The notes below the pieces were generated by a model. That model was not told where the DNA came from. It worked only from the letters and a program-made list of their open reading frames with translations, and searched no databases. 64,000 nt of DNA from Patescibacteria group bacterium (lineage in GTDB: Bacteria; Patescibacteriota; Patescibacteriia; UM-FILTER-42-10), in the NCBI GenBank assembly GCA_041666845.1, contig JBAYGC010000004.1:7965-71964 (forward strand). The letters are read 5' to 3'. The position numbers were made by a program, and so were the translations under genes. Below are positions 28,797 to 56,816 of the stretch, one piece after another. The first letter of the stretch is position 1. Each line of letters starts with the position of its first letter.

Positions 28797-29422
28797 TTTT
28801 TTATCCTACTTCCCCAGTTAATTGGATCTTTAAGATACTGTTTAATCGCTAAAGTATCTTCGAGATCAAAAATGTTGTGTTTAATACCAAAATTGGCAAT
28901 TTCTTGAAAAGTTACTAGATAGTGAATCTTTATTTTACTTGCTTTCTCGATTTTTTTTGCCAGTTCCTTTTTGACTATTGAAACTACTATAACATCTTCA
29001 ACTTTTGCCTTGTTTTTCCTAAGTACTTTGACGGCATTGTTAATATTGCTTCCAGTCACCATCATATCATCTATCAGTACCACTTTCTGGCCAGGCTTGA
29101 GAATCCCTTCAATTTGTTTTTTTGTACCATTTGTTTTTGGTTTTTTTCTGACGTAAATCATTGGTTTGACAAGTGCTCGGGCGAGAATACCGGCAAAAGC
29201 GATGCCTGCCGATTCATTTCCCGCAATTATATTATAATGCTTTGGCAGTAACCCCTTTAATTGATTAAAAACTATTGATAGTTCCTTGGGGTATGATAAT
29301 AGATTTCTATGGTCAAGATAAATAGGTTGATATAGCCCCGCTCCACCTAATAGCGGCTTTTTGTAATCACAATAAACATTTTGCGCCTTGTATAATGCCT
29401 TTATGATTTTTGGTTTGTTCAT
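28793..29422 (-). CDS. OPRT-like PRTase, paralog 2
   Basis: VVLIDDMMVTGSN PRPP motif. Overlaps neighbouring genes by 4 nt on both sides. Confidence 0.7.
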   Translation of the reverse strand: MNKPKIIKALYKAQNVYCDYKKPLLGGAGLYQPIYLDHRNLLSYPKELSIVFNQLKGLLPKHYNIIAGNESAGIAFAGILARALVKPMIYVRKKPKTNGTKKQIEGILKPGQKVVLIDDMMVTGSNINNAVKVLRKNKAKVEDVIVVSIVKKELAKKIEKASKIKIHYLVTFQEIANFGIKHNIFDLEDTLAIKQYLKDPINWGSRIKK

Positions 29423-30999: not shown

Positions 31000-31005
31000 T
31001 CTAAT

Positions 31006-31080
31006 TGGTGCCCCCATGAGGAATCGAACCTCAATCTTAGGCTCCGGAAGCCCACATTCTATCCGTTGAACTACAGGGGC
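31006..31080 (-). tRNA. tRNA-Arg (anticodon CCG), CCA encoded
   Basis: The reverse complement reads GCCCCTG-TA-GTTC-AACGGATA-GAAT-G-TGGGC-TTCCGGA-GCCTA-AGAT-TGAGG-TTCGATT-CCTCA-TGGGGGC-A-CCA. This gives a cloverleaf with a 7-bp acceptor stem (two G-U pairs), U8, a GTTCGATTCC T-arm, U33 and anticodon CCG. Confidence 0.85.
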
Positions 31081-31234
31081 ATGTTGAAATATTAATCTAC
31101 TACTTGCCTTCCGAAGCTCAAATCTAATTTGAGCGAAAGAAGGAGCTACAGGCGCATTCTTGACGCAGCTTAATATTAACACGTTTATATATACTGGATC
31201 TATTGCCCGTCCGCTTTAATACTATTTTCAACTA

Positions 31235-43800: not shown

Positions 43801-46800
43801 TCTTTGGTACGATATATGGATTACCAGGACAAGCTGTCGTCAAATTTCCATCTGTAAAACATTCCTCATTCAGTCCTGAAACACTGGTTGAACTTGGTTG
43901 ATAAACAAAAGTGTAGAAGTCTCCGCGGATACCCGGAGAGTCAGAAGCCTTCACCGCCAGTGCTGGCTTCATGGATACGTTGTCCACGGAGAACGAAACA
44001 TTACCGCCCATATTCCGAATCAACAGGAAGGTTTCCGCGTTTTCATCCGGGATGCCGTTAATCCTTACCGGTTTCAGTACCTGCTGTTCCCAACCGGTTG
44101 AACCATCAAAATAACCCAGGAAATTTTCACCGACAATATTGCCATTCTCAAATTGAGCTAGTGAAACTGAAATAGTTTCCTGTCCGGCTTCCGGCAGGTT
44201 TTCAAACCGGAAATCCAGACTGGCGATGTATTCAGTATTGTTTAATATATTTGTTCCCAAACTGGTCTTAATACCCAGTCCGGTAAATTCACAACTGCCA
44301 ATCACGCACTCTCCGCCGGCCACGGTACAGATTGTCCCCTGGTTCGTGGACAAATCATCGCAAACACCCTGCGACCCTGCCGAATATAGCAGGTAATTAT
44401 TCTCATCCAATGCGGAATTGCCGACCGTTTCCGGTCCTTCCACGACACTGACACTGCTGTCCAGATCGGGGAAGATAGCTGTCCACGACCCTTCTTCTTC
44501 GGCGGTAATACAATTCGGAATGGCGGTCAGATTCTCATCCGGTACGCAGTTCTCATCCACCACGCAAGAAGTATCTTTATTATCCATATTCTCATCACAA
44601 ACCATGAACCGACTTAACGCGTTCGACTCAAAATCACCAAATCTTACCAAATCTTTTGTGATTGCTCCGCCCAGACCAACTTCATACATTTCCGAATAGG
44701 GATAATACCCTTCAATAATGTCACACTTATCGCCAAGTCCGGCACAAGTAGTGGCTTCTGTTGCTACAGTGCAATCAACGGAATGATCATCCCGACAGCC
44801 ATACTGCAAACCGGCGCTGACATACCCGGACAGATTTTGAAACTCGTCCAGCGGATATGCCGCCGTATCACCGGTGACATTGGTCGGTCCTGGATCGATC
44901 GTACTGATACAGGAACCGTTGGAACCCAATTCATCACACAAGCCGATTTCAAAACAAACGTCCTCTTTTGTTTTACCATCACCGTCCAAGTCTGTGTTGT
45001 CATCCACCTCAAAAGATGTTTTGCAGTACAACCATTCGTCACAGACACGGTCTCTTTTAACCTTTAACACTGTGTTCGAATCCGCTATCGGACTTCCTCC
45101 TGCTGTATATAAACTGCACGCGCCTCCGCCCAGACATTCAGCGCCTCCGCTAGTACATAGGTCATTTGGATTTGTGCCCCCAATACAGGTTCCGAATCTA
45201 CCCAGTACCGGTGGTCCAAATTCCGGATTTTCAATACATAAACCGCCCGCACCGCAGTCCGCATCAACATCGCAATCATTACCATAAGTTACCGGATTAC
45301 CCAGGTCACAATAGAACTCCTGGCCATCCGGGCTTAAATCCGCCGTGTAATTCAGCGACTGAGTTGTATCACTGAATAAGACACAGCCTTTTTCTGCATT
45401 AACCACTCCGTTACAACTGGTGGAATCAACGCTGGATTTAATATTATAATATGTCGAACATCCCGGCAGTCCGCCCGGTGTCACAACACAATTCTCATCA
45501 AACAAAACCGTGTCGCCCTCATAAGGACACAACGGCTGACAGCCGATCGGATCCAGCGGGTCACTATAGGCCGTACATCCGTCCGCTTTGGAATCGCAAA
45601 GGCCCACCCATGGCACACATCTGGCACTATCAGCACATGGTACCGCATCATCCGGATTACAGATTGTATTCGGGGCCGCTGCCGGCGTGCCCCCCTCACA
45701 GACAAAAGCTGGGATCGCCGGACTGGGTGGTGTTGGTGTAGTTTCGCACGGTGTTTCTGTTCCGGAGATATACCAGTCAAAATCGTATGAACCCTGCAAC
45801 TGTTTATATTCGCAAGTACGACCATCAATCGGCTGTTTGAAATAAGTTTTGCCTCCGCCACCTGAGAAACCATATTCCTCGCAACCGGATTCGGAATTAT
45901 CGCACCAAATATTATCATATTCAGCTGCGTTATCTTTCAGATAAACATCCTCATACGAAATTAGATTATTTTCTTCATCAAAATTCGGTAACCCTAACCT
46001 ACTGCATCCCTGATTATCAGCTGAGCAATAATTGTCTGGATTGTTGATTACTGTTACCAGTGAATCATCTGGTGTAATAACATGACTTAGAGTTTGCGCG
46101 GGATCACCAAATTCCTCAGCATAAGGCGATCGGGTATTAGCAGTATCAATTAATGCTTCACAACCGACCGTATCTTCACTGCACAATTTCGAAAATGACA
46201 TCAGATAATGAATATTACTATCAACATCGGAATACGCTTCACAATTTTCGGATCCATAACAGGTATCATATGAACCACGGACTAAATACCGGTTTGTGGT
46301 TGTTTCAACCAGTTCAATATTATCCAAGTAAATTTGACTGCCGACATTTTGGAACTGTAGAGCGGTCGGTAGACCGGACCACAGCGCTGTATCAGAAGTA
46401 TTGATTGTTACCGGGCCTAGTCTAAATTCCTGCCATTCAGGTGTAAGCCATACTTCCGGAGGAAATGTAGTGCCTGATTGATCAGCAAACCAATTATCCC
46501 CGCCTACGGCACCGATCGCCGTATTAAACTTAATGTACATATTGTCACTAGCGGAATCAGATCTGCCCCAGAACTTTAATTCGTAAGTTTTTCCATCTTC
46601 CAAAGTTACCGGTTTTTCTGTATTGGCATTTGTATTAAGAGAGTGTCCGCCGACGATTATTGAATTATTACTGACTGTTCCCGGTGCCCAACTCATGGTT
46701 GTACCGTCCTCAAAATCATCAGAAAATATCTGGCGATAGTTATATCCCGAATTACCCAAGTATTCACGGCAACCGGCATATTGTGCCGGACAGGAACGGC

Positions 46801-49800
46801 TTTCGCTCGGAGTACCATAATAAGTATCACCGTCAATACTGTTTCTCTCCGGATGGCAATCATCAGTAACTGAAATTGTCATTGATTTGTATCGATAAAA
46901 CACATGCAAACTGGCATCAAAGAACTGCGTGCAGTCCGGATCCGTGCCATAAACTGCTGAACACTCAGAATCCGCCTGGATATTTGCGTTCGTATCCGCA
47001 CAGGTTAAGTTAGTCGGATTCGGATCAACATTCAAATGAGTACACGGTGCGTTGCCGACTTCCACCGGACCGCCGGTATAAACAATGTTACTTTGCTTCA
47101 ACCTGAATGAGCGCAATTGATAACCAGCTACCGCGTCCCCTTCCCAAGCATAGTAAGTATCAATATTTGCTGAGTTGGTCGGAACGCACTGTTTTAGGAA
47201 AGAATAATATTCAATTCCTTCTCCGCCGGCCGCGACTTCGTCCAGATTTGTATATTCTTCGCAACCGACATAGGCCGCGGAACACTGTTCTCCGGTATCC
47301 GGAATAAATGATATAACCGGTAAACATGCCCCTGTCCCGCAATCAGCATTAATTAAGCAAGCCTCCCCCTCATTCGGACCGCCATAGCAGTACTGACCAG
47401 AACGCTCAATATTATTGGGATCCGGCATTACAGTGGTCAGTTTAACTTCTTCAAAAGCTTTGCATCCGACATCTTCAGCAGAACACTCGTCAGACGGCCT
47501 GATTTGCGCCGGCACCGGATCTCCGCTTAATAGCGGGGTATAAAATTGGCATCCGACATCCAGCGGATCACAAGTATCTCTTTCACCGTTCAGGTATACT
47601 TTATTTATCGCGCCGTAATCCACATATTCACTGGCGATTTTTGATTCTTCCACCATAGTCGCATCCAGCAACAAATTGCATCCACTATCCGGTGCAATTT
47701 CAAAAGCAACATGTTCAGTACCAATGGGGAAGGAATCCGGGTATGTATAAGTCACGACATATCTTTGCCATTCACTGCTTATATTATCAATATTAACCGA
47801 CTCCAGTGGAACATTGATCGCGTCAACTATTTCTAATCTTGAATTATTATTGCACGATGCTAAATCATTCGGATCTTTTTTTGCGTAAATTGAAACCGTA
47901 AATGTCCTGCTACTTACCGGAGAACCTGTTTCCGCTGAACCTACTAATAACTCCGTTAACGCCGGTCCGGAGTTCAATATCAGTGCATTGTTACCTGCAT
48001 AAGGTGAATCACCAGGAGTATTTGGTGTTACTATTTCGACTTCCGCGCCAAAAACCGGCGCCCATGCTGAATCAAAATTATCCGCTATCCCATCATCTGG
48101 GACGCTCAGATTGTCATAGTAATCAAAGCTAGGATTGGTGTGTAAATTTGTGCCGTTGGTTGTGCGGATAAATTCGTCACAACCCGCCGCGCTTGCGTCG
48201 CAAGTTTCCGCTGAAGCGGTAAGATGCGACAACCATGATGCGCCTGCCGCTGGCGGCACATAGCCGGACGGCCCGACTACACCATCTGACCACGCGCTGT
48301 AATCATCATTATTCAAATCGTCCCAATAGCATTCCCATCTTTCATCGGTTTGGTTGTACTCTTTGCAGTACCATTGGCAACCGACATTATCCGCGGAACA
48401 GCCGTTGAAATCTAGGGTTGTCGCCAAATACGACGCAGGCTGGCCTTGTCGGTCAGTATAGGTGGTGCAGGTATTATAATAGTCGGGGCATGATTCGCCA
48501 TTGAATCTCCAAATCGGATCTTCTTTGGTGCAATAGCCGTATTCCAGACAGTTACCGGTTTCGTCTTCGGCAATACATGACTGATCATCAACACATGAGG
48601 TATTGCGTTGAATCTGGCGAACCTTTGGAGTTTCATCTATTCCGTCATCATCAATATATTCGTCAAAAAGGAATGTCTCATTATAACCGCTGTTCACGCA
48701 TTGGGTTGCCGGCGCTTTCAGTACCCAGTCCGGATCGATCAACTGATAATACTGGGAAGTTTCATCATTGAAATCTTTAATCAAATCATTCAAACTCCGT
48801 GCGCCTCCGCCGAACTCCCTGATGTAAGAAGCGGCTAACTCCCAACTGACCGGTACTATTCGATACCTTCTTAACAAAACCAAACTGCGGTACGGATAAC
48901 CCTCCTGATAATTCAGCTGTGATCCGCCGTCGCCGTAACCAAACGGTTTGTCACCGTTGATATAACCCAGCTCAATCGCTTCTTCCAGACGCAACTGCTG
49001 TTCCACTGCCGTACGGAAACTCGAATCAATGGCGCAGTTTTCCGGCTCGGCAAAATCAGTCGGGCAGGAAGATAGTTTATTTAAAATGTCTACAGATCCG
49101 CCCGCGCTCAGCGAAGGCTGGTTGAATGAAGCAAATTTTGCTTCCGCGGCCGCAATACCTGAAGACCGGCCGAACTTACCCTGGTCAAATCCCGTATTAT
49201 CCGCCGCGGGGTTCAAACCTTTGACCAAAATATATTCCATATACTTCTTGACTAAAGTATTGGTAAACGTTCCGATCATATCCGCGATAATACTGCCAGT
49301 GCTGGTTTTATCGGCAGTAGTTGTTTCCCATAAAGCAAAATTTTGTGCCGCTTCAATAGTCGCGGCCGGGGTTTTAATATCGCCGGTTACTATACTAGTC
49401 AGTGCCGTAAAATCCTTGGCTTGTTTCGCCGCTTCCGCCTCTTCCGCTTTTTGTTTTTCCGTCTTGGCTTCGCGATAGATTTTCAAATACTGTCCCACTT
49501 GTGCCGTATCCTCGCCGAACATATTCGGAAATTCTTGCAAAATAGTCCTAGATAATTGAGCGGGATCCACACCCTTGATGGCAAAACCTAAATCTATATC
49601 CGCTGAGAAAAGCGTGCCATCCGTAAACTTACTGACAATTGAAGTAACATCACATTTCGCCTTCCTGTCACTTCCAGGAGTTGGCAATCCTAAATCAAGA
49701 TTAATGCTTTCCGTTATTGATACTTTTAAAGTCGGATTAATGTCACAAATACTTTTTCCCCATGCTTCAGATGTGATCTGGTCAAGATAATCACCAACCG

Positions 49801-50161
49801 CGGAATTACCGGCGTCTAATAATGCCTGACCAAATTGTTTAGTATTGAATAACGGCTTTTGTCCGGCCGCGCCGCTCGCTATCTTCACTGCCGTATCATA
49901 AGCCAACTGTTGGGTAAAAGTCCTTAATGCATTTTTGAAAGCAATGTCCGAAGATTTTTCAACAGCAGAGGTGATGGCTTGCCACAATTTTGCCGGAATG
50001 TCCTGAATAACTGTCGTAAAAGTTACATCACCAACACCAAATAATGCGTTTGCCGGCTTCGGGATAAAAAGAAAAAGTTGTATCAGAAATGTAACAAAAA
50101 TAAAAACACCAATTAGTTTTCCTTTGAAATGGTGTTTAGGATTTTTTTGATCGCCACTCAT
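40817..50161 (-). CDS. Giant (3114 aa) Cys-rich secreted protein with two PA14-like domains and a C-terminal PKD domain; putative adhesin
   Basis: N-terminal signal/TM. PA14-like stretches (DGVRIWVDD…WHPVKIEFTNGGGYGGVQM and GYKFFIDDLTVP…WHPIMIEYYQKLGNSSMQFNWQ). PKD signature near the C-terminus (IDWGDGSTS…HLFSHTYDEPG). Numerous Cys pairs. Confidence 0.7.
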   Translation of the reverse strand: MSGDQKNPKHHFKGKLIGVFIFVTFLIQLFLFIPKPANALFGVGDVTFTTVIQDIPAKLWQAITSAVEKSSDIAFKNALRTFTQQLAYDTAVKIASGAAGQKPLFNTKQFGQALLDAGNSAVGDYLDQITSEAWGKSICDINPTLKVSITESINLDLGLPTPGSDRKAKCDVTSIVSKFTDGTLFSADIDLGFAIKGVDPAQLSRTILQEFPNMFGEDTAQVGQYLKIYREAKTEKQKAEEAEAAKQAKDFTALTSIVTGDIKTPAATIEAAQNFALWETTTADKTSTGSIIADMIGTFTNTLVKKYMEYILVKGLNPAADNTGFDQGKFGRSSGIAAAEAKFASFNQPSLSAGGSVDILNKLSSCPTDFAEPENCAIDSSFRTAVEQQLRLEEAIELGYINGDKPFGYGDGGSQLNYQEGYPYRSLVLLRRYRIVPVSWELAASYIREFGGGARSLNDLIKDFNDETSQYYQLIDPDWVLKAPATQCVNSGYNETFLFDEYIDDDGIDETPKVRQIQRNTSCVDDQSCIAEDETGNCLEYGYCTKEDPIWRFNGESCPDYYNTCTTYTDRQGQPASYLATTLDFNGCSADNVGCQWYCKEYNQTDERWECYWDDLNNDDYSAWSDGVVGPSGYVPPAAGASWLSHLTASAETCDASAAGCDEFIRTTNGTNLHTNPSFDYYDNLSVPDDGIADNFDSAWAPVFGAEVEIVTPNTPGDSPYAGNNALILNSGPALTELLVGSAETGSPVSSRTFTVSIYAKKDPNDLASCNNNSRLEIVDAINVPLESVNIDNISSEWQRYVVTYTYPDSFPIGTEHVAFEIAPDSGCNLLLDATMVEESKIASEYVDYGAINKVYLNGERDTCDPLDVGCQFYTPLLSGDPVPAQIRPSDECSAEDVGCKAFEEVKLTTVMPDPNNIERSGQYCYGGPNEGEACLINADCGTGACLPVISFIPDTGEQCSAAYVGCEEYTNLDEVAAGGEGIEYYSFLKQCVPTNSANIDTYYAWEGDAVAGYQLRSFRLKQSNIVYTGGPVEVGNAPCTHLNVDPNPTNLTCADTNANIQADSECSAVYGTDPDCTQFFDASLHVFYRYKSMTISVTDDCHPERNSIDGDTYYGTPSESRSCPAQYAGCREYLGNSGYNYRQIFSDDFEDGTTMSWAPGTVSNNSIIVGGHSLNTNANTEKPVTLEDGKTYELKFWGRSDSASDNMYIKFNTAIGAVGGDNWFADQSGTTFPPEVWLTPEWQEFRLGPVTINTSDTALWSGLPTALQFQNVGSQIYLDNIELVETTTNRYLVRGSYDTCYGSENCEAYSDVDSNIHYLMSFSKLCSEDTVGCEALIDTANTRSPYAEEFGDPAQTLSHVITPDDSLVTVINNPDNYCSADNQGCSRLGLPNFDEENNLISYEDVYLKDNAAEYDNIWCDNSESGCEEYGFSGGGGKTYFKQPIDGRTCEYKQLQGSYDFDWYISGTETPCETTPTPPSPAIPAFVCEGGTPAAAPNTICNPDDAVPCADSARCVPWVGLCDSKADGCTAYSDPLDPIGCQPLCPYEGDTVLFDENCVVTPGGLPGCSTYYNIKSSVDSTSCNGVVNAEKGCVLFSDTTQSLNYTADLSPDGQEFYCDLGNPVTYGNDCDVDADCGAGGLCIENPEFGPPVLGRFGTCIGGTNPNDLCTSGGAECLGGGACSLYTAGGSPIADSNTVLKVKRDRVCDEWLYCKTSFEVDDNTDLDGDGKTKEDVCFEIGLCDELGSNGSCISTIDPGPTNVTGDTAAYPLDEFQNLSGYVSAGLQYGCRDDHSVDCTVATEATTCAGLGDKCDIIEGYYPYSEMYEVGLGGAITKDLVRFGDFESNALSRFMVCDENMDNKDTSCVVDENCVPDENLTAIPNCITAEEEGSWTAIFPDLDSSVSVVEGPETVGNSALDENNYLLYSAGSQGVCDDLSTNQGTICTVAGGECVIGSCEFTGLGIKTSLGTNILNNTEYIASLDFRFENLPEAGQETISVSLAQFENGNIVGENFLGYFDGSTGWEQQVLKPVRINGIPDENAETFLLIRNMGGNVSFSVDNVSMKPALAVKASDSPGIRGDFYTFVYQPSSTSVSGLNEECFTDGNLTTACPGNPYIVPKINWYEPCIACNAGDTALCTLCGNGDATVTIPGEMDPLVPDNADFIVANSSGRWEGGINIPTSGYQTLFFNVNDGVRIWVDDMAAGSEIVSAWGSIPTLGYMWSQYFTAGWHPVKIEFTNGGGYGGVQMGRTSGQWNPTNCGGGIPDAFCINYAWDQNGDGVISPLTEGMLFPTYNRITAIPSNYLIPQVELTTELELVFGNYLGTYVSDYLNYDNASMPTLLNDNAGATEMVAVRWAGKLLVENTGNHLFNLVVDDGYKFFIDDLTVPVQENWTDGVHNDSFTVNGLDAGWHPIMIEYYQKLGNSSMQFNWQPPGAPAITAVPAENLSTTDGDQKYLIRSCRAYPREDSEVCQYTNSDLVQFNGWQGYCIETDPTNPDKCITWWPVDVISGESSVFGTVDPAGYKGRRPLYMCVEATGNYDDTTLLVGNDDENSLCGASNIVTDLVGKVAGYRRNLVTNFTHAGDIEETCDGDDSGCGSLEDLGWCENYDGQRPLSDNAWGFCSCRGGGGINTTVLAQGSDRTYHDWEIDRIEWVQQRSSHSDWPGGGATWIANAENDWDISWDGNDNHLRIKTNFSATDHTIDNYYVYMEDGSGGSGGMWVMGYVYLRDVCTEVAKVASISDDKAWAQRTANTSSYQIRDILYKYNENAAPFGAIVAGQGDDPGSTWDSSVSDGMQPLYIENFDSTPTPPVNNTRAGSPYSCDGDCVPKVCMGGSYDTVHRGTQYACTTDADCGGEDGNRGVCVGLGYCSGDVTKYCTDDAYCTSVNAGSCVGAAARNAGDGVNQATGFDGNVWAVDNLQRIFAYVYDAWFWDVDTATYEKINPANPSWNYVWNNEFNHMPLCNTDGAGPRPTWPPDNDYCAILPAIDNVLINGADGDVELFGGGSITLSFTSFVDPEQEALKNIVIDWGDGSTSSIVWNGAPKSDPSQPHLFSHTYDEPGATQIYNIEIMLKDNWGFCNDQNSATPGLRPCDINSTTQNYQEFNGTITVQPS

Positions 50162-51098: not shown

Positions 51099-51971
51099 TT
51101 ATTCTAATATTTTCGCTAATATTAGACCCATTGTCAGACTTTTCCAGTCATTTATTGTGATATCCTGCGGTCTTAATTCTGGTTTTATACCATTTTCAGA
51201 TAAAATTCCCTTAATTTTCTGCGCGTCAGCGTGAAAACTATTGGTTAAATTGTTGTGAATCTGCTTGCGTTTGGCTGAAAAACCCCCTTTTACCACCTGA
51301 AAAAACTGTTTTTGGGTGAAGTTATAGCCATTTTGTGTATTTTCTTCCTTGATCTGTTTATCACTCTTAATCCCCTCAATCATGATCACTGAACTATCCA
51401 CCTTTGGTTTTGGCCAAAAGCAGTCTTTAGACACTGCTCTTACAATGCGTGGATTACCGAAATATTGCACAGAAACCGCCAAAAGACTCAATTCGGAAGG
51501 CTTGGCAGTAATTCTTTCCGCCACTTCCTTTTGAATCAATACTGACATTGTTTTAGGCTTTGGATCCTGCTCCAGAAATTTTCTCAAGACATATGAAGTA
51601 ATGTTATATGGAATATTCGCGACAATTTTGTATTGCTCACCCCCCATCAGTTTACTGACATCCATTTTGATAATATCCTGATGAATTACTTCAATCGCCG
51701 GAAAAGATTTTTCTAATTTTTTAAGTGCCGGGATAAATCTTTTTTCCAGCTCTACCGCCCAGACTTTATTGACCTTCTCCGCCAGTTTCTTTGTTAATGG
51801 CCCGAAGCCGGCGCCGATCTCCAGTACATTGTCATCAGGTTTAAGTTGTGCCGAATCAACAATCGCATCCAACACCTCTTCGTCAACTAAAAAATTCTGT
51901 CCGCTCTCCCGCTGAGGACGGATGCCGAAGTTCTTAGTCAGATATTTTATTTCCGCTTCTAGATTATTCAA
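51099..51971 (-). CDS. rsmA: 16S rRNA (adenine1518/1519-N6)-dimethyltransferase RsmA/KsgA
   Basis: QNFLVDEEVLDAIVD, SAM motif LEIGAGFGPLTKKL, IVANIPYNITS. Confidence 0.85.
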   Translation of the reverse strand: MNNLEAEIKYLTKNFGIRPQRESGQNFLVDEEVLDAIVDSAQLKPDDNVLEIGAGFGPLTKKLAEKVNKVWAVELEKRFIPALKKLEKSFPAIEVIHQDIIKMDVSKLMGGEQYKIVANIPYNITSYVLRKFLEQDPKPKTMSVLIQKEVAERITAKPSELSLLAVSVQYFGNPRIVRAVSKDCFWPKPKVDSSVIMIEGIKSDKQIKEENTQNGYNFTQKQFFQVVKGGFSAKRKQIHNNLTNSFHADAQKIKGILSENGIKPELRPQDITINDWKSLTMGLILAKILE

Positions 51972-51988
51972 AATATATTTATTTACAA

Positions 51989-52600
51989 TTAAACAACAAC
52001 ACTCCCTTTTCTCAATATAATTATTTTACTGGATGCGACTTTTACGATAGTTGAAGGTTTAACTTCCGGCAGTTTGCCCGCATCCACTACCAAATCAATT
52101 TTTTGATCAAACCCGTGAATTTGTTTCTTAATCGCGCTGACAGAATAACACTCTTTTCCCTTTGACTGATTTGCGCTGGTGCTGATTATCGGTCGACCTA
52201 ATTCATCGGCAATTGTGCGGGCAATTTTATTCCCGGACACTCTTACTGCCAAACTCGGTTTTCTGGCAGTAAGCATTGCTGGAATATTTTTTTTCTTTTT
52301 TAATACTAACGTCAAGGCGCCCGGCCAGAATTTTTTCGCAAGTAGAAGTGATGGGGAATTAAACATAACAAACTTTCTGGCCTGTTTTAAATCACCGACA
52401 ATTACAGGTAGTGGAAGCTTTACTGATCGTCTTTTTATGGCGTAAATCTTTTTTATTACTTCTTTGTTCAGAGCATCGCCACCTACGGCATAGGCGGTTT
52501 CCGTCGGATAGACAATTACACTACCAGATTTCAGATGCGCGACAATTTTATTTAGCGTTTGTTTGGAAAGTCTATTATTTTGGACAGAAACAGTCTCCAT
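51989..52600 (-). CDS. tsaC: L-threonylcarbamoyladenylate synthase (YrdC/TsaC domain)
   Basis: VIVYPTETAYAVGGDA, FWPGALTLVL, PIISTSANQSKG motifs. Confidence 0.8.
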   Translation of the reverse strand: METVSVQNNRLSKQTLNKIVAHLKSGSVIVYPTETAYAVGGDALNKEVIKKIYAIKRRSVKLPLPVIVGDLKQARKFVMFNSPSLLLAKKFWPGALTLVLKKKKNIPAMLTARKPSLAVRVSGNKIARTIADELGRPIISTSANQSKGKECYSVSAIKKQIHGFDQKIDLVVDAGKLPEVKPSTIVKVASSKIIILRKGSVVV

Positions 52601-52606
52601 GAATTT

Positions 52607-53785
52607 CTATAATACATTAATGAATAATGATACTAGGGCGGCTAGTGGAAAGGCTAAACCCATGCCCCCCAGGGCAATTACTAAAAGCATAAAGCTCAAT
52701 ATTATAACTCGCCCCAAACCGATAGCCATTTCGCGCAGTACCGTATATTCATCAACATAATGGCCGGAATCAGCCGCTTTTTCATACATCAACGCGTCAA
52801 ATGGAGTGCGCATCACAATAGTTGCAAAACTGTGGTATGTCGACGCGATAAAGATTTGGAAACCGGTAGTAACAAAAGTTTTAATCAGCCAACCAACCGC
52901 ATACAAAATAGAGCCGGTACGCATCAGTTTCTTTTTGCGCATCTGATCTGTATATTTCCCCATTCCCAATTGAATAATAATAGTCAGCAACACAACTACC
53001 GAGGAGATGATGCCGATCATCAGATATTTGCCATCTAGAATTTGCCAGACAAAGATCGGCCATAAAACAACCCCGACCGAATTTTCCGCCCCATCCGCGC
53101 CGTAAGCTAGAAGCATTCTCCGGTTTTTTTTATGAAAAAGTTTTTTGAATGTTTCGAAGTAACCGAAGCTGTACTTCTCATAAACCGCCCTGGTTAAAAG
53201 AAACGGGATCAATGACAGAGTGATCAGAATAATTACTACCACAAACAGTATTTGAAAATTAAACTGGTCCAAAATAAATCCGCCGGCAAACGGAACGGCA
53301 ATGCTGACCAGCGATGCGATTGCCGCCAGAAAGCTGATTTGCTTCCCTCGGTTGCGCCGGTCCGTGAATTCGGCAAAGTCAGTGTGGTACGGAACCCAGT
53401 AAAACATCCGGTAGATTGTGAGAAAAACCAAAGAGGCAATTGTAAATACCCAGATATTGGATTCAAAATAATAAAAACAGACGTAATGTAAAACCAAAAA
53501 AGGAATGCTCAAAATGAGCGTCTTTTTCAGATTTATCCTGGACATTACACGGGCGCCGATCGGACAAGTGAAAAAATAGGCTAGATACCCTATTAAAAAA
53601 TAATAGATAACGTAGTAAATATTTTTGTCATATACCAGGTAAAGAAAAACGGGCAAAAAAAGCCCGAGCATTCCATTCGCCACCTGCAGAATCACCCGAT
53701 TCATATACAGCGAAATCACTCCTGAAGAAAGTTCGCTCTTCAGATAGAATTTTGAAAAAAATCCGCTCATCTTATTTGACCACAA
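52607..53785 (-). CDS. Polytopic membrane transporter, MFS-like
   Basis: About 12 predicted TM helices across 392 aa. No definitive MFS signature was read, so the call is topology-based. Confidence 0.5.
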   Translation of the reverse strand: MWSNKMSGFFSKFYLKSELSSGVISLYMNRVILQVANGMLGLFLPVFLYLVYDKNIYYVIYYFLIGYLAYFFTCPIGARVMSRINLKKTLILSIPFLVLHYVCFYYFESNIWVFTIASLVFLTIYRMFYWVPYHTDFAEFTDRRNRGKQISFLAAIASLVSIAVPFAGGFILDQFNFQILFVVVIILITLSLIPFLLTRAVYEKYSFGYFETFKKLFHKKNRRMLLAYGADGAENSVGVVLWPIFVWQILDGKYLMIGIISSVVVLLTIIIQLGMGKYTDQMRKKKLMRTGSILYAVGWLIKTFVTTGFQIFIASTYHSFATIVMRTPFDALMYEKAADSGHYVDEYTVLREMAIGLGRVIILSFMLLVIALGGMGLAFPLAALVSLFINVL

Positions 53786-56700
53786 TATTTAACAGCTTGC
53801 CCGGTACAAATATTTTCTTGACGACTTGCTTATCTGCAATCAATTCCTGAATTTTACTGCTTTGCTCTAAATATTGTAGCACATCTTCCTCCGTAACGTC
53901 AGCCGGCATCAGGCATTTATCTTTCAGCTTGCCGTTGATTTGTATCACAAACTCAATTTTCTGGTCTTTAACCAGTCTCGGATCAAATTTCGGCCAGGAT
54001 TCCAGATGGATAGATTTATTGTTTCCCAGTTGTAACCATAATTCTTCAGTTAAATGTGGTGCAAATGGGGATAATATCAGTAATAATTTTTCAAATGTAA
54101 TCTTATCAATCTTCCTTGCTCCCTGCATTTCATTGACCAAAATCATTAAAGCTGAGACAGCCGTATTAAACCGGAATTCATTGATGTCTTCCGTTACCTT
54201 TTTAATCGTTTTATGCAGTAGACTCTTTATCTTTTCATCAACACCCTTAACCCCTAATCCCTTAGCCCTTAATCCTAATAAATAAACTTTATCCAAAAAT
54301 CTTCTCACTCCCACAATCCCCTTCGTATCCCAAGGAATCGCCTCGGCAAACGGGCCCATGAACATTTCATACATCCGCAGAGTATCCGCGCCGTATTCTT
54401 TTACCACGTCGTCGGGATTGATTACGTTGCCCAGCGATTTCGACATTTTCTTACCATCTTCCGCTAGCACCATACCGTGTGAAATTCGTTTTTGATATGG
54501 CTCGGATGTCGGCACTAACTTCAAATCGTAAAGCGCTTTGTGCCAGAACCGGGAATATAATAGATGCAGTGTCGTGTGTTCCATCCCGCCGTTGTATAAA
54601 TCAACCGGCGTCCAGTATTTCAATGCTTGCTGTGAAGCAAACTCTTTGTCATTATGCGGATCCGTATAACGCAAGAAATACCAACTGGAACCCGCCCAGT
54701 TCGGCATGGTGTCCGTCTCCCTTTTTGCTTTACCACCACACTTGGGACATTTCACATTCACCCAATCTTTAATTCCCGCCAGCGGTGACTCGCCGGTTTC
54801 TGTCGGTTCGTAGTTTTTAACTTTTGGCAGTTCCACGGGCAAATCTTTTTCCAGCACCGACACGATTCCGCATTTTTCGCAGTGAACTAATGGAATCGGC
54901 TCGCCCCAGTAATGCTGACGGGAAAAAATCCAATCACGGAGTTTATATTGCACTGAAGAATCTGCTAAACCCAATTTCTTTAAATCTTCAATAATCTTTA
55001 CTTTAGCACCCAGTTTACCAAACGAAGTTAATCCATTATATTTGCCTGAATTTATTAAGTTACCTTCCCCAGCAAATACTGACTTATTTGCAACAATTTC
55101 GGGATGTGGTTGATTTTCTGAATGAACAATTATCGGTTCAATTACTTTTATTACTGGCAACTTATACTTCGTTGCAAATTCAAAATCCCGTTCATCATGA
55201 GCCGGTACGGCCATAATCGCGCCAGTGCCATATCCCGTCAGCACATAATCCGCGACCCAAACCGGAATCTCTTCACCACTGGCCGGATTGATTGCTTTGA
55301 CTCCTTTCAGTTCAACCCCGGTTTTGTCTTTTGCCAGATCCGTTCTCTCCAAATCGCTTTTATTCTGGGATGCTTTAATATATTTTTCTACTTCTTCAAA
55401 ATTATTAATTTCCGGTTTCAGCTTCTCCACCAATTCATGTTCCGGCGCCAATACCAGATAGGTCGCACCGAATATCGTATCCGGCCGGGTAGTAAATATT
55501 TTTACCGAAGGAATTAAATCATCCAGCAGTTCCGGCAGTTTTATAATACCTTTGCGTTCATTAAAATGGCCTTTCCCCGGTAGTAGTTTAAAACTCGCTT
55601 CTGGGATGTGCTTCTTATAAAAATCTATCGATTCTGGTGAGATGTATGGATCATCGTCAGAATAATATACCACTACTTTTCTGACATTCTGCTTGATCTT
55701 TTTCCAGTCGAATTTTAAATCAGCAAATTTCTTTATTGCATCCCAATCAGCATGGGGAAATTCTTTGTTTAAGTGTTTCCAATCCTGAAGCGGATTGACC
55801 GGAGCAACCATAATTAGTTGATCAATTTCTCGATTGGTTTCTTGAATAAGATTTAAAGCGGCTGGCGCACCTAGGCTATGGCAGACAATAGTTGAAACAT
55901 CGCTAAAAGAGTCCATAAGAGCTTTTGTCCAATCATTAACTACCGGGTGATCGGTAGCAGGAAGATCGGGTACGCCTACTTGCCACCCTTCTTCTTGTAA
56001 TACATTTTTTAGCCAAGGAAACCAATTCTCCCTTCGATGACCACTTACCCCGTGCACAATTAAACAATGCTTCGTTTTATTCCCCGCTAATCTTGGATAT
56101 TTAATTTTAAAAGATACCTCCGCGCCTTCACTGCGCCCGATCCAGTTGATCTGCTGAGATTTTATCTTTTCCAGATAATCAACCGTATCCAAATCGTCAA
56201 TCAGACGCTGGGCATACTGAGTTATTTTAAACATCCATTGTTTCAAATTCTTTTTGGTTACTTCCGTACCACAGCGCTCGCATTTGCCGTTCACTACTTC
56301 CTCATTAGCTAGTCCGATCTTACAGGAAGGACACCAGTTAATCGGCATTTCACTTTGATAGACCAGTCCTTTCTTATACAGCTGTAAAAAAATCCACTGC
56401 GTCCATTTATAATATTCCGTGTCGGTAGTAACCACTTCTCTGGACCAATCAAAAGAGAGCCCCAGGGATTTTAATTGTGTGCGGAAACGTTCTATATTAT
56501 CTTTAGTAATGTCGGCTGGATTTTTTTTAACCTTAATCGCGTAATTTTCTGTCGGCAGACCGAATGCGTCAAAACCGATGGGGAAAAGGACATTATTGCC
56601 TTCCATCCGTTTTTTGCGCGCCACGATGTCGAGTGCCGTATAACTGCGCGGGTGACCGACATGCAATCCTTCCGCCGAAGGATACGGAAATTCAATCAAA

Positions 56701-56816
56701 CAGTAGAATTTGTCCTTTTTAGGATCGTCTTTTGTCACATAAAGACCGTCCTGACTCCACTTGTCCTGCCACTTTTTTTCGATTAAGTGATGATCGTACT
56801 TCTCTGCCTCGGACAT
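53772..56816 (-). CDS. leuS: Leucyl-tRNA synthetase with an inserted alpha/beta-hydrolase (YdeN/RBBP9-like serine hydrolase) domain upstream of the CP1 editing domain
   Basis: HIGH = HVGH. Zn knuckle CPSC…CERCG. WIGRSEGAEVSF. TTRPDT editing motif. GTGAIMAVPAHDERD. KMSKS. About 190 extra residues (aa ~245-435, nt ~55512-56084) lie between WIGRSEGAEVSFKI and IFTTRPDT, with IVHGVSGH…VCHSLGA…MVAPV…SDDDP…GKGHF, i.e. GxSxG nucleophile-elbow hydrolase architecture. Confidence 0.85.
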   Translation of the reverse strand: MSEAEKYDHHLIEKKWQDKWSQDGLYVTKDDPKKDKFYCLIEFPYPSAEGLHVGHPRSYTALDIVARKKRMEGNNVLFPIGFDAFGLPTENYAIKVKKNPADITKDNIERFRTQLKSLGLSFDWSREVVTTDTEYYKWTQWIFLQLYKKGLVYQSEMPINWCPSCKIGLANEEVVNGKCERCGTEVTKKNLKQWMFKITQYAQRLIDDLDTVDYLEKIKSQQINWIGRSEGAEVSFKIKYPRLAGNKTKHCLIVHGVSGHRRENWFPWLKNVLQEEGWQVGVPDLPATDHPVVNDWTKALMDSFSDVSTIVCHSLGAPAALNLIQETNREIDQLIMVAPVNPLQDWKHLNKEFPHADWDAIKKFADLKFDWKKIKQNVRKVVVYYSDDDPYISPESIDFYKKHIPEASFKLLPGKGHFNERKGIIKLPELLDDLIPSVKIFTTRPDTIFGATYLVLAPEHELVEKLKPEINNFEEVEKYIKASQNKSDLERTDLAKDKTGVELKGVKAINPASGEEIPVWVADYVLTGYGTGAIMAVPAHDERDFEFATKYKLPVIKVIEPIIVHSENQPHPEIVANKSVFAGEGNLINSGKYNGLTSFGKLGAKVKIIEDLKKLGLADSSVQYKLRDWIFSRQHYWGEPIPLVHCEKCGIVSVLEKDLPVELPKVKNYEPTETGESPLAGIKDWVNVKCPKCGGKAKRETDTMPNWAGSSWYFLRYTDPHNDKEFASQQALKYWTPVDLYNGGMEHTTLHLLYSRFWHKALYDLKLVPTSEPYQKRISHGMVLAEDGKKMSKSLGNVINPDDVVKEYGADTLRMYEMFMGPFAEAIPWDTKGIVGVRRFLDKVYLLGLRAKGLGVKGVDEKIKSLLHKTIKKVTEDINEFRFNTAVSALMILVNEMQGARKIDKITFEKLLLILSPFAPHLTEELWLQLGNNKSIHLESWPKFDPRLVKDQKIEFVIQINGKLKDKCLMPADVTEEDVLQYLEQSSKIQELIADKQVVKKIFVPGKLLNIVVK

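What the first reader, a model, noticed from the sequence alone, without database searches (positions are those of the whole stretch)
55512..56084. Alpha/beta-hydrolase (serine esterase-like) domain inserted into leucyl-tRNA synthetase immediately before the CP1 editing domain
Canonical bacterial LeuRS has about 10 residues between WIGRSEG.E.F and the TTRPDT editing motif. Here about 190 residues are inserted, with the IVHGVSGH oxyanion/β-strand motif, the nucleophile elbow CHSLGA (GxSxG), and downstream SDDDP and GKGHF motifs of YdeN/RBBP9-type serine hydrolases. Aminoacyl-tRNA is an ester, so an appended esterase could provide an additional or alternative deacylation (editing, trans-editing or peptidyl/aminoacyl-tRNA hydrolysis) activity. 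It could also moonlight on another ester substrate. It is not an intein: it lacks Cys/Ser-…-HN splice junctions, and it is not an IS element because it is in-frame and has hydrolase-fold motifs.
Basis: partly seen in the sequence, partly recalled or inferred. Interest (0 to 1): 0.75.

Follow-up and report, generated by a model that had tools for sequence, protein, structure and literature searches.

The report
Serine hydrolase nested inside leucyl-tRNA synthetase
The enzyme that loads leucine onto tRNA in this tiny-celled (Patescibacteria) bacterium carries a complete, apparently active esterase-type enzyme spliced into the edge of its proofreading domain, and the same pairing recurs in related bacteria often enough to suggest the two work together, though nobody has tested what the extra enzyme does.

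Summary
The 1014-aa ORF at 53772-56816 (-) is a complete bacterial-type LeuRS. A ~194-aa YdeN/RBBP9-family serine hydrolase (PF06821) is nested at aa 242-435 (nt 55512-56093), in the first beta-hairpin of the editing domain.

- **Catalytic residues:** Ser314, Asp389, His417 and the HG motif are present, and 94-100% conserved in 80 LeuRS-borne copies.
- **Selection:** dN/dS against an 85%-identical orthologue is 0.13.
- **LeuRS motifs:** HIGH, KMSKS and both editing motifs are intact, so the hydrolase adds to CP1 rather than replacing it.

It is not a one-off. Many Patescibacteria LeuRS carry this hydrolase at four or five sharply defined sites around CP1, sometimes twice. Nearly all large proteins among the top 150 hydrolase homologues are LeuRS. 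The two closest free-standing homologues lie immediately upstream of leuS.

Best reading (inferred, about 0.35): a LeuRS-coupled hydrolase of alpha-aminoacyl esters, acting as an auxiliary deacylase. The main rival is a housekeeping hydrolase merely hosted in permissive LeuRS loops, because NUDIX, HAM1 and nuclease domains nest there too. Eight full-text searches found no description. Verdict: new variant of a known kind.

The parts
53772..56816 (-). leuS: complete bacterial-type leucyl-tRNA synthetase with a nested hydrolase, 1014 aa
   Evidence: ORF. TIGR00396 scores 1011.7 bits against a cutoff of 548.4. The AF2 full-length model has pLDDT 91.4 and pTM 0.82. Foldseek gives TM 0.81-0.87 (normalised to target) to Tth and E. 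coli LeuRS.
56097..56816 (-). N-terminal half of the catalytic domain, with the ZN1/'CP1 hairpin' and CP2, plus the first strand of the editing-domain hairpin (aa 1-240). HIGH motif HVGH at aa 52-55 (nt 56652-56663).
   Evidence: Aligns to Tth LeuRS residues 2-237. Motif coordinates verified.
55512..56093 (-). Nested YdeN/RBBP9-family serine hydrolase domain (aa 242-435). The Pfam envelope is aa 252-431 = nt 55524-56063.
56049..56054 (-). HG oxyanion-hole motif (His255-Gly256)
   Evidence: Coordinates. Conserved 95-96% in 80 LeuRS-borne copies.
55869..55883 (-). Nucleophile elbow C-H-S-L-G (aa 312-316). The catalytic Ser314 is at nt 55875-55877.
   Evidence: Coordinates. Ser is 100% conserved in LeuRS-borne copies. 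The first position is Gly in 86% and Cys in 4%, including this protein and its orthologue P0017.
55647..55661 (-). SDDDP; the catalytic acid Asp389 is at nt 55650-55652
   Evidence: Coordinates. Asp is 94% conserved, with Glu in a further 4%. It aligns with the 'DDP' of YdeN and RBBP9.
55563..55577 (-). GKGHF; the catalytic His417 is at nt 55566-55568
   Evidence: Coordinates. His is 97% conserved.
54957..55511 (-). Remainder of the CP1 editing domain (aa 436-620). T-rich motif TTRPDT at aa 442-447 (nt 55476-55493). GTGAIMAVPAHDERD at aa 530-544 (nt 55185-55229).
   Evidence: PF13603 E=2.5e-58 over aa 437-598. Motifs. Aligns to Tth residue 243 onward.
53772..54956 (-). Zn2, the second half of the catalytic domain (KMSKS at aa 790-794, nt 54435-54449), the anticodon-binding domain and the C-terminal domain. 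The leucine-specific domain is absent.
   Evidence: In one search the Tth alignment jumps from 580 to 637 while the query moves only from 786 to 790.

Best explanation
**Shown.** The gene encodes a full bacterial-type LeuRS. A complete, folded serine hydrolase of the YdeN/RBBP9 family (about 21 kDa; Ser314-Asp389-His417 plus an HG oxyanion motif) is nested in the turn of the first beta-hairpin of the CP1 editing domain. That turn is five residues upstream of the strand leading into the T-rich editing motif. The hydrolase is under purifying selection. The canonical synthetic and editing motifs of LeuRS are intact, so the hydrolase is an addition to CP1 editing, not a replacement.

**Shown comparatively.** This belongs to a LeuRS-associated branch of the hydrolase family in Patescibacteria. 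That branch occurs either nested in LeuRS, at four or five discrete loops in and next to CP1, or as a separate gene abutting leuS.

**Inferred.** The characterised family members act on alpha-aminoacyl substrates with a free alpha-amine or on short esters: RBBP9 (N-terminal aminoacyl amides; the L-valyl ester valacyclovir) and ML-005 (short-chain esters). The partner is always LeuRS. I therefore propose that the domain is an alpha-aminoacyl-ester hydrolase working in the LeuRS reaction cycle. Most likely it is a second, Ser-nucleophile deacylase that rides on the mobile editing domain and clears aminoacyl esters that CP1 handles poorly, such as mischarged aminoacyl-tRNA(Leu) or released aminoacyl esters or thioesters.

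**Rough likelihoods:**
- Domain identity and nesting: above 0.95.
- Catalytically active: about 0.85.
- Functionally linked to LeuRS in some way: about 0.7.
- Specifically an aminoacyl-tRNA or aminoacyl-ester deacylase: about 0.35.
For: **Identity and fold.**

**Triad and HG motif.** 94-100% conserved in 80 LeuRS-borne copies.

**Selection.** dN/dS for the insert is 0.13, against 0.03-0.24 for the rest of the gene, measured against orthologue L007.

**LeuRS motifs.** HIGH, KMSKS, the T-rich motif and GTG..HD.RD are retained here. They are retained equally often in hydrolase-bearing and hydrolase-free relatives.

**LeuRS specificity.**
- 55 of the other 119 listed LeuRS clusters carry the domain.
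- In a scan of 1.84 billion representative proteins, 24 of the 25 hydrolase hits longer than 440 aa among the top 150 that contain a recognisable hydrolase domain are LeuRS or LeuRS fragments.
- No N- or C-terminal fusion to LeuRS was seen; all copies are internal.

**Recurrence.**
- Insertion sites lie at core-HMM positions of about 240, 370, 404 and 440, plus about 205 in L015.
- Some proteins carry two copies.
- Hydrolase lineages mostly cluster by site, with free-standing genes interleaved.
- LeuRS cores 78% identical to this one (P0018-20) carry a hydrolase less than 40% identical at a different site.

**Gene neighbourhood.** The two closest free-standing homologues are P0001 (55% identical) and P0136 (49%). 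They lie 1 bp and 78 bp upstream of an insert-free leuS, in the same leuS / Sua5-YrdC / MFS neighbourhood as the window. P0143 is 40 bp upstream of leuS and P0181 is 1 bp downstream of it, in other neighbourhoods.

**Chemistry.** RBBP9 is an aminopeptidase that requires a free alpha-amine (PMC8866121). It is also reported as a valacyclovir-activating enzyme (Shenoy 2020, as cited in PMC7730578). The YdeN relative ML-005 is a short-chain esterase (PMC6119806).
Against: - **No direct evidence that tRNA is the substrate.** The hydrolase is near-neutral rather than basic: median pI is 6.3 for LeuRS-borne copies against 5.8 for free-standing ones.
- **Geometry not measured.** I could not obtain model coordinates, so the distance from Ser314 to the tRNA 3' end path is unknown.
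- **Substrate-binding residues unresolved.** The lid region (aa 340-372) is variable. No counterpart of RBBP9's alpha-amine anchor Glu108 could be established.
- **The same loops host unrelated domains** in related LeuRS: NUDIX, HAM1, an ASCH-like domain, DUF559, PDDEXK_3, a Y1 transposase and a nucleotidyltransferase. The sites may simply be permissive.
- **The hydrolase also fuses with non-aaRS partners:** NUDIX, PF10706 nucleotidyltransferase, glyoxalase, peptidases S51 and S9, and a PBP.
- **Adjacency is not universal.** Six of ten free-standing homologues with informative contigs are not next to leuS. Of 65 free-standing loci in GTDB species genomes, only one has leuS within 6 kb.
- **CP1 is intact,** so the need for a second deacylase is not obvious.
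Confidence: 0.38

Rival explanations
1. Passenger housekeeping enzyme. The hydrolase is a general esterase or aminopeptidase that Patescibacteria need anyway. It is merely hosted in permissive surface loops of a large, essential, constitutively expressed protein. This gives co-expression and genome economy without any mechanistic coupling to aminoacylation.
For: - The same loops carry NUDIX (27 cases), HAM1 (9), an ASCH-like domain (6), DUF559, PDDEXK_3, Y1_Tnp and a nucleotidyltransferase in related LeuRS.
- IleRS of related contigs carries a nested His_Phos_1 domain.
- The hydrolase also fuses to NUDIX, a nucleotidyltransferase, glyoxalase, peptidases and a PBP.
- Distant free-standing copies are common in CPR and DPANN genomes, away from leuS.
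- The domain is not basic.
Against: - Among the top 150 hydrolase hits in the 1.84-billion-protein scan, 24 of the 25 large domain-containing proteins are LeuRS, not other large essential proteins or the homologous IleRS or ValRS.
- Nesting happened repeatedly, at four or five sites and from several hydrolase lineages.
- The nearest free-standing homologues are leuS-adjacent genes, both upstream and downstream. Pure hitch-hiking does not predict that.
Confidence: 0.27
2. Amino-acid supply. The domain is an RBBP9-like aminopeptidase that releases hydrophobic N-terminal residues, including Leu, from scavenged peptides. In an amino-acid-auxotrophic symbiont this would feed the attached LeuRS.
For: - RBBP9 is an aminopeptidase needing a free alpha-amine.
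- The hydrolase is fused to S51 and S9/S33 peptidase domains elsewhere.
- The family is enriched in CPR and DPANN organisms.
- The operon and fusion link with leuS.
Against: - Channelling a free amino acid does not explain why fusions are always internal and cluster around CP1 rather than at the termini.
- RBBP9 prefers aromatic residues.
- Identity to RBBP9 is only 21%.
- The bacterial relative ML-005 is an esterase.
Confidence: 0.12
3. Self-protection. The domain hydrolyses aminoacyl-adenylate-mimicking LeuRS inhibitors or other antimetabolites at the target enzyme. This would be analogous to immunity enzymes that cleave aminoacyl-nucleotide antibiotics; that analogy comes from memory and is a lead only.
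For: - Its fusion partners elsewhere form a resistance or detoxification-like set: an ANT(2'')-like nucleotidyltransferase, the glyoxalase/bleomycin-resistance fold, and NUDIX.
- The same nucleotidyltransferase and NUDIX domains also nest in LeuRS.
- NCBIfam lists an IleRS with an N-acetyltransferase domain (NF040702, seen).
- The family hydrolyses an aminoacyl ester of a nucleoside analogue.
Against: - This is entirely circumstantial.
- No inhibitor is known in these communities.
- No resistance-gene context is present in the window.
Confidence: 0.08
4. Selfish in-frame insertion. The hydrolase is cargo of a homing-type element that targets conserved leuS sequence, and it persists because it is tolerated in a loop.
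For: - DUF559 (Vsr-like endonuclease) sits directly after the hydrolase at the same site in P0030, P0088 and P0102.
- PDDEXK_3 and an IS200-like Y1 transposase domain also occur in frame at this site in other LeuRS.
- Closely related LeuRS cores differ in the presence and position of inserts.
- The insertion sites are sharply defined.
Against: - The window's insert has no nuclease.
- Its GC content is 0.399, against 0.421 for the rest of the gene.
- dN/dS of 0.13 and a 94-100% conserved triad show selection on enzyme function.
- Hydrolase identity to the other copies at this site (50-55% to P0030 and P0052) is close to the LeuRS-core identity to those same proteins (57-60%), as expected for vertical co-inheritance.
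Confidence: 0.07
5. Inactive relic or purely structural or regulatory spacer, or an assembly or annotation artefact.
For: The first Gly of GxSxG is replaced by Cys.
Against: - The triad and HG motif are intact and conserved.
- dN/dS is 0.13.
- The fold is confidently predicted, with pLDDT 92.7.
- The same architecture appears in an independent MAG at 85% identity, and in dozens of other assemblies.
Confidence: 0.04

Closest known systems
B. subtilis YdeN (PDB 1UXO), Pfam PF06821 Ser_hydrolase, COG3545
   Different: YdeN is a free-standing protein with no known physiological substrate. Here the domain is nested inside another enzyme, has C-H-S-L-G instead of G-H-S-L-G, and carries a slightly longer lid segment shared only with its leuS-adjacent relatives.
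Human RBBP9 (PDB 2QS9, 7OEX)
   Different: Only 21% identical, eukaryotic and free-standing, with a preference for aromatic residues. The alpha-amine anchor Glu108 has no demonstrable counterpart here.
Canonical LeuRS CP1 post-transfer editing domain
   Same: It is a hydrolytic module inserted into the class Ia catalytic domain, and it hydrolyses aminoacyl esters. The new domain sits within it and would move with it.
   Different: Unrelated fold and mechanism. CP1 has no Ser nucleophile and uses the T-rich and Asp motifs, which remain intact here.
Free-standing trans-editing deacylases (AlaX, YbaK/ProXp, Dtd); comparison from general knowledge
   Same: The proposed role is the same: an additional hydrolase clearing wrong aminoacyl-tRNAs. 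Like them, the hydrolase exists both as a separate gene and as a fused domain.
   Different: Different folds. No alpha/beta-hydrolase-fold aminoacyl-tRNA deacylase and no LeuRS-specific trans-editing factor is known to me. Activity on tRNA is untested.
Other aaRS with extra enzymatic domains: NCBIfam NF040702 (IleRS with a GNAT domain) and the Patescibacteria IleRS with nested His_Phos_1 seen here
   Same: A class Ia synthetase carrying an unrelated catalytic domain.
   Different: Different host enzyme and different guest domain. None has been characterised.
Inteins
   Same: An in-frame insertion of a folded module inside a conserved essential gene.
   Different: No Hint or endonuclease domain, no Cys/Ser ... 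His-Asn-Cys/Ser/Thr junctions, and the insert is a conserved enzyme retained in the mature protein.

Membership tests
PF06821 Ser_hydrolase (YdeN/RBBP9 family) | Match to the family profile above the curated gathering score | tested here: met
   69.3 bits in the whole protein and 74.2 bits for the insert alone, against a cutoff of 22. The match covers profile positions 2-167 of 172.
PF06821 Ser_hydrolase (YdeN/RBBP9 family) | Compact ~190-aa alpha/beta-hydrolase fold superposable on solved family members | tested here: met
PF06821 Ser_hydrolase (YdeN/RBBP9 family) | Ser-Asp-His catalytic triad and HG oxyanion motif at the family positions | tested here: met
   Ser314, Asp389, His417 and His255-Gly256 align with the YdeN and RBBP9 motifs. 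They are 94-100% conserved in 80 LeuRS-borne copies.
PF06821 Ser_hydrolase (YdeN/RBBP9 family) | Canonical G-x-S-x-G nucleophile elbow | tested here: inconclusive
   The sequence is C-H-S-L-G. The first Gly is replaced by Cys here and in orthologue P0017, a variant found in 4% of LeuRS-borne copies. It is probably tolerated, but activity has not been tested.
PF06821 Ser_hydrolase (YdeN/RBBP9 family) | Hydrolytic activity (esterase or aminopeptidase) | not testable with these tools
   Needs an enzyme assay or activity-based probe labelling.
Bacterial-type leucyl-tRNA synthetase (TIGR00396 leuS_bact) | Equivalog profile score above cutoff | tested here: met
   1011.7 bits against a cutoff of 548.4.
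Bacterial-type leucyl-tRNA synthetase (TIGR00396 leuS_bact) | Class I HIGH and KMSKS signature motifs | tested here: met
   HVGH at aa 52-55 and KMSKS at aa 790-794.
Bacterial-type leucyl-tRNA synthetase (TIGR00396 leuS_bact) | CP1 editing domain with the T-rich and GTG...HD.RD motifs, inserted at the bacterial position | tested here: met
   PF13603 E=2.5e-58. TTRPDT at aa 442-447 and GTGAIMAVPAHDERD at aa 530-544. Collinear with Tth LeuRS.
Bacterial-type leucyl-tRNA synthetase (TIGR00396 leuS_bact) | Overall fold of solved LeuRS | tested here: met
   Foldseek gives target-normalised TM 0.81-0.87 to 2BTE, 5OMW and 4AQ7.
Bacterial-type leucyl-tRNA synthetase (TIGR00396 leuS_bact) | Leucine-specific domain (present in most bacterial LeuRS but not all) | tested here: not met
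   Tth residues 581-636 have no counterpart: the query moves only from 786 to 790. LeuRS without this domain are known, for example M. mobile (PMC3643597 abstract), so this does not exclude membership.
Intein | Hint splicing domain, N-terminal Cys/Ser, and C-terminal His-Asn followed by Cys/Ser/Thr | tested here: not met
   No Hint, intein or LAGLIDADG family among the Pfam hits. The junctions read ...FKIKYP|RLAGNK... and ...DDLI|PSVKIF....
Insertion sequence or transposon | Transposase gene, terminal repeats, disruption of the host reading frame | tested here: not met
   There is a single uninterrupted ORF and no transposase domain. GC content is similar to the rest of the gene. dN/dS is 0.13. 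Terminal repeats were not specifically searched.
Aminoacyl-tRNA trans/cis-editing deacylases (functional class) | Demonstrated hydrolysis of (mis)aminoacyl-tRNA | not testable with these tools
   Only circumstantial evidence: LeuRS-specific nesting and adjacency and the family's chemistry.

The most novel reading that the evidence does not exclude
Patescibacteria have repeatedly bolted a Ser-His-Asp hydrolase onto the moving editing domain of LeuRS. This would create the first alpha/beta-hydrolase-fold proofreading or detoxifying module of an aminoacyl-tRNA synthetase: a second, mechanistically distinct site that clears aminoacyl esters (mischarged tRNA-Leu, aminoacyl-nucleoside-type inhibitors, or reactive thioesters). 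More broadly, LeuRS in these ultra-small bacteria would serve as a chassis for a whole set of nested 'sanitising' enzymes (Ser-hydrolase, NUDIX, HAM1, ASCH-like), possibly delivered by in-frame nuclease-assisted insertion.
Probability: 0.2. Interest if true: 0.88.

Novelty: new variant of a known kind. Interest (0 to 1): 0.68.

Why it matters
LeuRS editing is one of the best-studied quality-control steps in translation, and CP1 is also a validated antibiotic target. A second hydrolase of a different fold, nested in CP1 and conserved under selection, is unexpected. So is its independent acquisition at several sites and its encoding next to leuS when not fused.

If it acts on aminoacyl-tRNA or aminoacyl-adenylate analogues, it would add a new class of editing or self-protection domain. 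It would also assign a physiological role to the poorly understood YdeN/RBBP9 family.

If it is only a passenger, the finding still documents a striking mode of genome economy in Candidate Phyla Radiation bacteria. Multiple unrelated enzymes are nested at fixed loops of an essential synthetase, which bears on how domain insertions arise and are tolerated.

The question is directly testable with one recombinant protein and three mutants.

Tried and rejected
**Rejected**
- **Intein or IS element.** No Hint or transposase domain, no splice junctions, one open frame.
- **Assembly chimera.** The same architecture occurs in an independent 85%-identical MAG and in dozens of other assemblies.
- **Decaying relic.** The triad is conserved and dN/dS is 0.13.
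- **Replacement for a lost CP1 editing site.** The editing motifs are intact here, and equally frequent with and without the hydrolase.
- **Recent foreign acquisition visible in composition.** GC is 0.399 in the insert against 0.421 in the rest of the gene; the composition profile is unremarkable.
- **Recombinant origin of the window's LeuRS.** Identity to P0018-20 is uniformly high across all gene segments.

**Inconclusive or weak**
- **RNA-binding signature in the hydrolase.** There is only a small pI shift (6.3 against 5.8, p=0.003) and the domain is still not basic.
- **Counterpart of RBBP9's alpha-amine anchor Glu108.** The lid region is too variable to align with confidence.
- **Universal leuS adjacency of free-standing homologues.** Not true: 4 of 10 informative contexts are adjacent and 6 are not. 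Two further look-ups hit contigs too short to inform.

**Could not be done**
- **Distance from Ser314 to the editing pocket or tRNA path.** The predicted coordinates are not exposed to the script environment, so this key test remains open.
- **First search for related loci attempt.** The 16-sequence alignment failed for lack of conserved stretches. A tighter alignment worked.

**Literature.** Eight full-text searches were run. Six (and a targeted read of AARS Online) looked for any description of hydrolase, NUDIX or HAM1 nesting in LeuRS or CPR synthetases and found none. Two retrieved the RBBP9 biochemistry.

**Not used.** I ran no further search on an unbiased prevalence estimate. The 55-of-119 figure is biased upward, because the query included the hydrolase.


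Full report
**1. What is at the coordinates**

The finding lies inside a single 1014-aa ORF on the minus strand, 53772-56816.
- NCBIfam identifies it as bacterial leucine--tRNA ligase (TIGR00396, 1011.7 bits, cutoff 548.4). The match is broken into two stretches.
- Pfam finds the class I catalytic domain (aa 15-224), the LeuRS editing domain PF13603 (aa 437-598, starting at model position 22) and the anticodon-binding domain.
- Between the catalytic and editing domains lies PF06821 Ser_hydrolase at aa 252-431, with E=5e-19 in context and 1.5e-20 when excised.
- An identical protein (P0016) and an 83%-identical one (P0017) are on record as 'leucine--tRNA ligase [Patescibacteria group bacterium]'. 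The window therefore comes from a Candidate Phyla Radiation MAG.

**2. Exact insertion point**
- Against T. thermophilus LeuRS, residues 5-239 align with Tth 2-237 and residues 438-786 with Tth 243-580.
- The sequence reads WIGRSEGAEVSFKIKYP | RLAGNK...DDLI | PSVKIFTTRPDT.
- About 194 residues (aa 242-435, nt 55512-56093) replace the 5-residue turn of the first beta-hairpin of the editing domain. In N. gonorrhoeae LeuRS the editing domain is defined as residues 225-427, starting just after the WIGRS tryptophan (PMC9424281). The return strand of this hairpin leads straight into the T-rich editing motif.
'Immediately before CP1' should read 'inside the first hairpin of the editing domain'.

**3. 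Identity of the insert**
- *Sequence:* B. subtilis YdeN (1UXO) at E=4e-14 over the whole length, and human RBBP9 at E about 8e-4.
They align with the YdeN and RBBP9 motifs.
- *Only oddity:* Cys replaces the first Gly of GxSxG. The orthologue P0017 shares this.

**4. The host enzyme is intact**
- HIGH, KMSKS, TTRPDT and GTGAIMAVPAHDERD are all present.
- The full-length AF2 model (pLDDT 91.4, pTM 0.82) superposes on solved LeuRS with target-normalised TM 0.81-0.87. The best match is the E. coli aminoacylation-state complexes.
- The leucine-specific domain is missing, as in some other LeuRS.
- Among 120 relatives, the editing and synthetic motifs are retained about equally with and without the hydrolase. 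The hydrolase therefore adds to CP1 editing rather than replacing it.

**5. The insert is under selection**
- Against the orthologue in L007 (85% identical insert, independent MAG), Nei-Gojobori dN/dS is 0.13 for the insert.
- The rest of the gene gives 0.03 (N-terminal core), 0.24 (CP1) and 0.07 (C-terminal part).
- Across 80 LeuRS-borne copies, Ser is 100% conserved, Asp 94% (plus 4% Glu), His 97%, and HG 95-96%.

**6. It is not unique: a LeuRS-hydrolase association in Patescibacteria**
- Of the other 119 LeuRS clusters listed, 55 contain the hydrolase. This figure is biased upward, because the query included the domain.
- The domain sits at sharply defined positions of a LeuRS core HMM:
  - about 240: this window's site, in the editing-domain hairpin
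  - about 370: a CP1 surface loop
  - about 404: the C-terminal edge of CP1
  - about 440: the Zn2 hairpin just after HCEKCG
- A fifth position, about 205, occurs in a Levyibacteriota genome (L015).
- Some proteins carry two copies: P0037, P0038, P0051, P0138 and the LeuRS ORF in L016.
- No terminal fusions were seen.
- In an exhaustive scan of 1.84 billion representative proteins, 24 of the 25 top-150 hits longer than 440 aa that contain a recognisable hydrolase domain are LeuRS or LeuRS fragments. The exception is a PBP.
- In GTDB species genomes, the 15 closest of 204 relatives are all nested in LeuRS (Patescibacteria, Liptonbacteria, Saccharibacteria, Levyibacteriota, Parcubacteria). The next 65 are free-standing ~190-aa genes in CPR bacteria and DPANN archaea.

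**7. Evolutionary dynamics**
- Hydrolase copies mostly cluster by insertion site, with free-standing genes interleaved. Site 240 contains several separate hydrolase lineages.
- The window's LeuRS core is 77-78% identical, uniformly along its length, to P0018-20. Those proteins have a canonical hairpin at this site and carry a hydrolase less than 40% identical at site 440.
- Relatives with 70-73% core identity carry a nucleotidyltransferase (P0022) or nothing (P0024).
- Gains, losses or differential retention therefore occur on short evolutionary distances.

**8. Gene neighbourhood**
- The two closest free-standing homologues of the window's insert share its extra lid segment and lie immediately upstream of an insert-free leuS:
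  - P0001 (55% identical): 1-bp gap or 8-bp overlap, upstream of an 814-aa LeuRS.
  - P0136 (49% identical): 78 bp upstream of an 805-aa LeuRS.
- Both sit in the same leuS / Sua5-YrdC / MFS neighbourhood as the window.
- Two free-standing members that cluster with site-440 copies also abut leuS in different neighbourhoods. P0143 is 40 bp upstream and P0181 is 1 bp downstream (LeuRS identity checked).
- Six other free-standing homologues (28-41% identical) are not next to leuS. Two further contigs were too short to tell.
- Four of ten is far above chance for immediate adjacency to one particular gene, but it is not universal.

**9. What it most likely does**

Shown: a folded, selected, probably active serine hydrolase is tethered to the mobile editing domain. 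That domain rotates about 30 degrees during the catalytic cycle (PMC9424281).

Inferred:
- Fusion at multiple sites plus conserved adjacency in both orders is the classic signature of a functional link with LeuRS. I put this at about 0.7.
- The only characterised relatives hydrolyse alpha-aminoacyl amides with an obligatory free alpha-amine (RBBP9, PMC8866121), the L-valyl ester of a nucleoside analogue (valacyclovir; Shenoy 2020 as cited in PMC7730578), and short-chain esters (ML-005, PMC6119806).
- An aminoacyl-tRNA 3' end is an alpha-aminoacyl ester of a nucleoside.
- I therefore commit, at about 0.35, to an auxiliary Ser-nucleophile deacylase for aminoacyl esters generated at LeuRS.

Not shown:
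- any contact with tRNA
- substrate-binding residues
- a basic surface

**10. Rivals**
- *Passenger enzyme (strongest rival).* The same LeuRS loops host NUDIX (27 cases at site 370), HAM1 (9 cases, at three sites), an ASCH-like 134-aa domain (6), DUF559, PDDEXK_3, an IS200-like Y1 domain and an ANT(2'')-like nucleotidyltransferase. IleRS on related contigs carries a nested His_Phos_1. Permissive loops in class Ia synthetases may therefore collect small hydrolases in these reduced genomes.
- *Peptide salvage or detoxification.* The hydrolase's other fusion partners are NUDIX, the nucleotidyltransferase, glyoxalase, S51 and S9 peptidases, and a PBP. These fit an aminopeptidase or amino-acid salvage role, or a detoxification or self-resistance role.
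- *Homing-like element.* DUF559 immediately following the hydrolase at this very site in three LeuRS raises an in-frame homing-like mechanism. The window's copy has no nuclease and behaves as a selected enzyme.

**11. Novelty**
- Automated pipelines have seen the architecture. JGI calls P0020 'leucyl-tRNA synthetase/predicted alpha/beta hydrolase family esterase', and NCBI labels some long forms 'alpha/beta fold hydrolase'.
- Six full-text searches and a check of the AARS Online paper found no description or analysis of it.
- Both components are known families. The nested combination, its recurrence at multiple sites, and the leuS-adjacent free-standing form are, as far as I can tell, undescribed. 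I rate it a new variant of a known kind.

**12. Verdict**

The functional interpretation is plausible and now better motivated, but unproven. Interest is 0.68. An aaRS specialist would be surprised, and the question can be settled with a few mutants and deacylation assays.

Noticed in passing
Related LeuRS proteins P0021-P0135; sites in LeuRS core-HMM coordinates of about 205, 240, 370, 440 and 640-670: Patescibacteria LeuRS host many other nested domains at the same few loops. These are NUDIX (27 cases, CP1 loop), HAM1/ITPase-like (9 cases, three sites), a 134-aa ASCH-like domain (6 cases, Zn2 site), DUF559 endonuclease directly after the hydrolase (3 cases), PDDEXK_3, an IS200-like Y1 transposase domain and an ANT(2'')-like nucleotidyltransferase. 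Proteins reach 1380 aa.
   Followed up: partly
L003 1-167; L005 590-4033; L006 268-3711: IleRS genes of 1147-1227 aa on Patescibacteria contigs carry a His_Phos_1 (histidine phosphatase) domain nested between two halves of the class I catalytic domain. This is another synthetase with an inserted hydrolase. A free-standing Ser_hydrolase gene lies 0.7-5 kb away.
   Followed up: no
L001 4474-5115 and 1440-2876: The contig with the hydrolase-leuS operon holds a second, divergent Ser_hydrolase paralogue 0.9 kb upstream. A 478-aa class I synthetase (Cys/Met-type Pfam hits) and a TatD nuclease gene lie nearby.
   Followed up: no
Proteins P0211, P0253, P0281, P0243, P0239, P0270, P0162: Outside LeuRS, the same hydrolase family is fused to NUDIX, an ANT(2'')-like nucleotidyltransferase, a glyoxalase/bleomycin-resistance domain, peptidase S51, an S9/S33 peptidase and a class A PBP. 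The partner set overlaps with the domains nested in LeuRS and hints at detoxification or peptide salvage.
   Followed up: partly
window 53772-54956 (LeuRS aa 786-790): This LeuRS lacks the leucine-specific domain. Tth residues 581-636 have no counterpart.
   Followed up: no
window 53772-53785: The 3' end of leuS overlaps by 14 nt the listed TTG start of the downstream MFS transporter ORF (52607-53785). Sua5/YrdC (51989-52600) and KsgA/RsmA (51099-51971) follow on the same strand. The leuS, Sua5 and MFS genes recur together (in varying order) in L001 and L087.
   Followed up: partly
window 31006-31080 (-): The only tRNA in the window, tRNA-Arg(CCG), lies inside the mechanically listed 587-aa GTG ORF 29419-31182 (-). 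That ORF's 5' part is probably not coding.
   Followed up: no
window 40817-50161 (-) and 37138-40800 (-): Adjacent giant ORFs of 3114 aa and 1220 aa. The 1220-aa ORF has no Pfam hit at E of 1e-4 or better. The 3114-aa ORF was not scanned.
   Followed up: no
Proteins P0137, P0147, P0174, P0151: Some database entries are half-LeuRS ORFs that begin or end in the hydrolase, for example LeuRS 4-439 plus hydrolase in 650 aa, or hydrolase plus LeuRS 432-801 in 576 aa. They may be contig-end truncations, or genuinely split leuS genes broken at the insert.
   Followed up: no
Proteins P0034 and P0081, C-terminal 159 aa: Two LeuRS carry a shared 159-aa C-terminal extension with no Pfam match.
   Followed up: no
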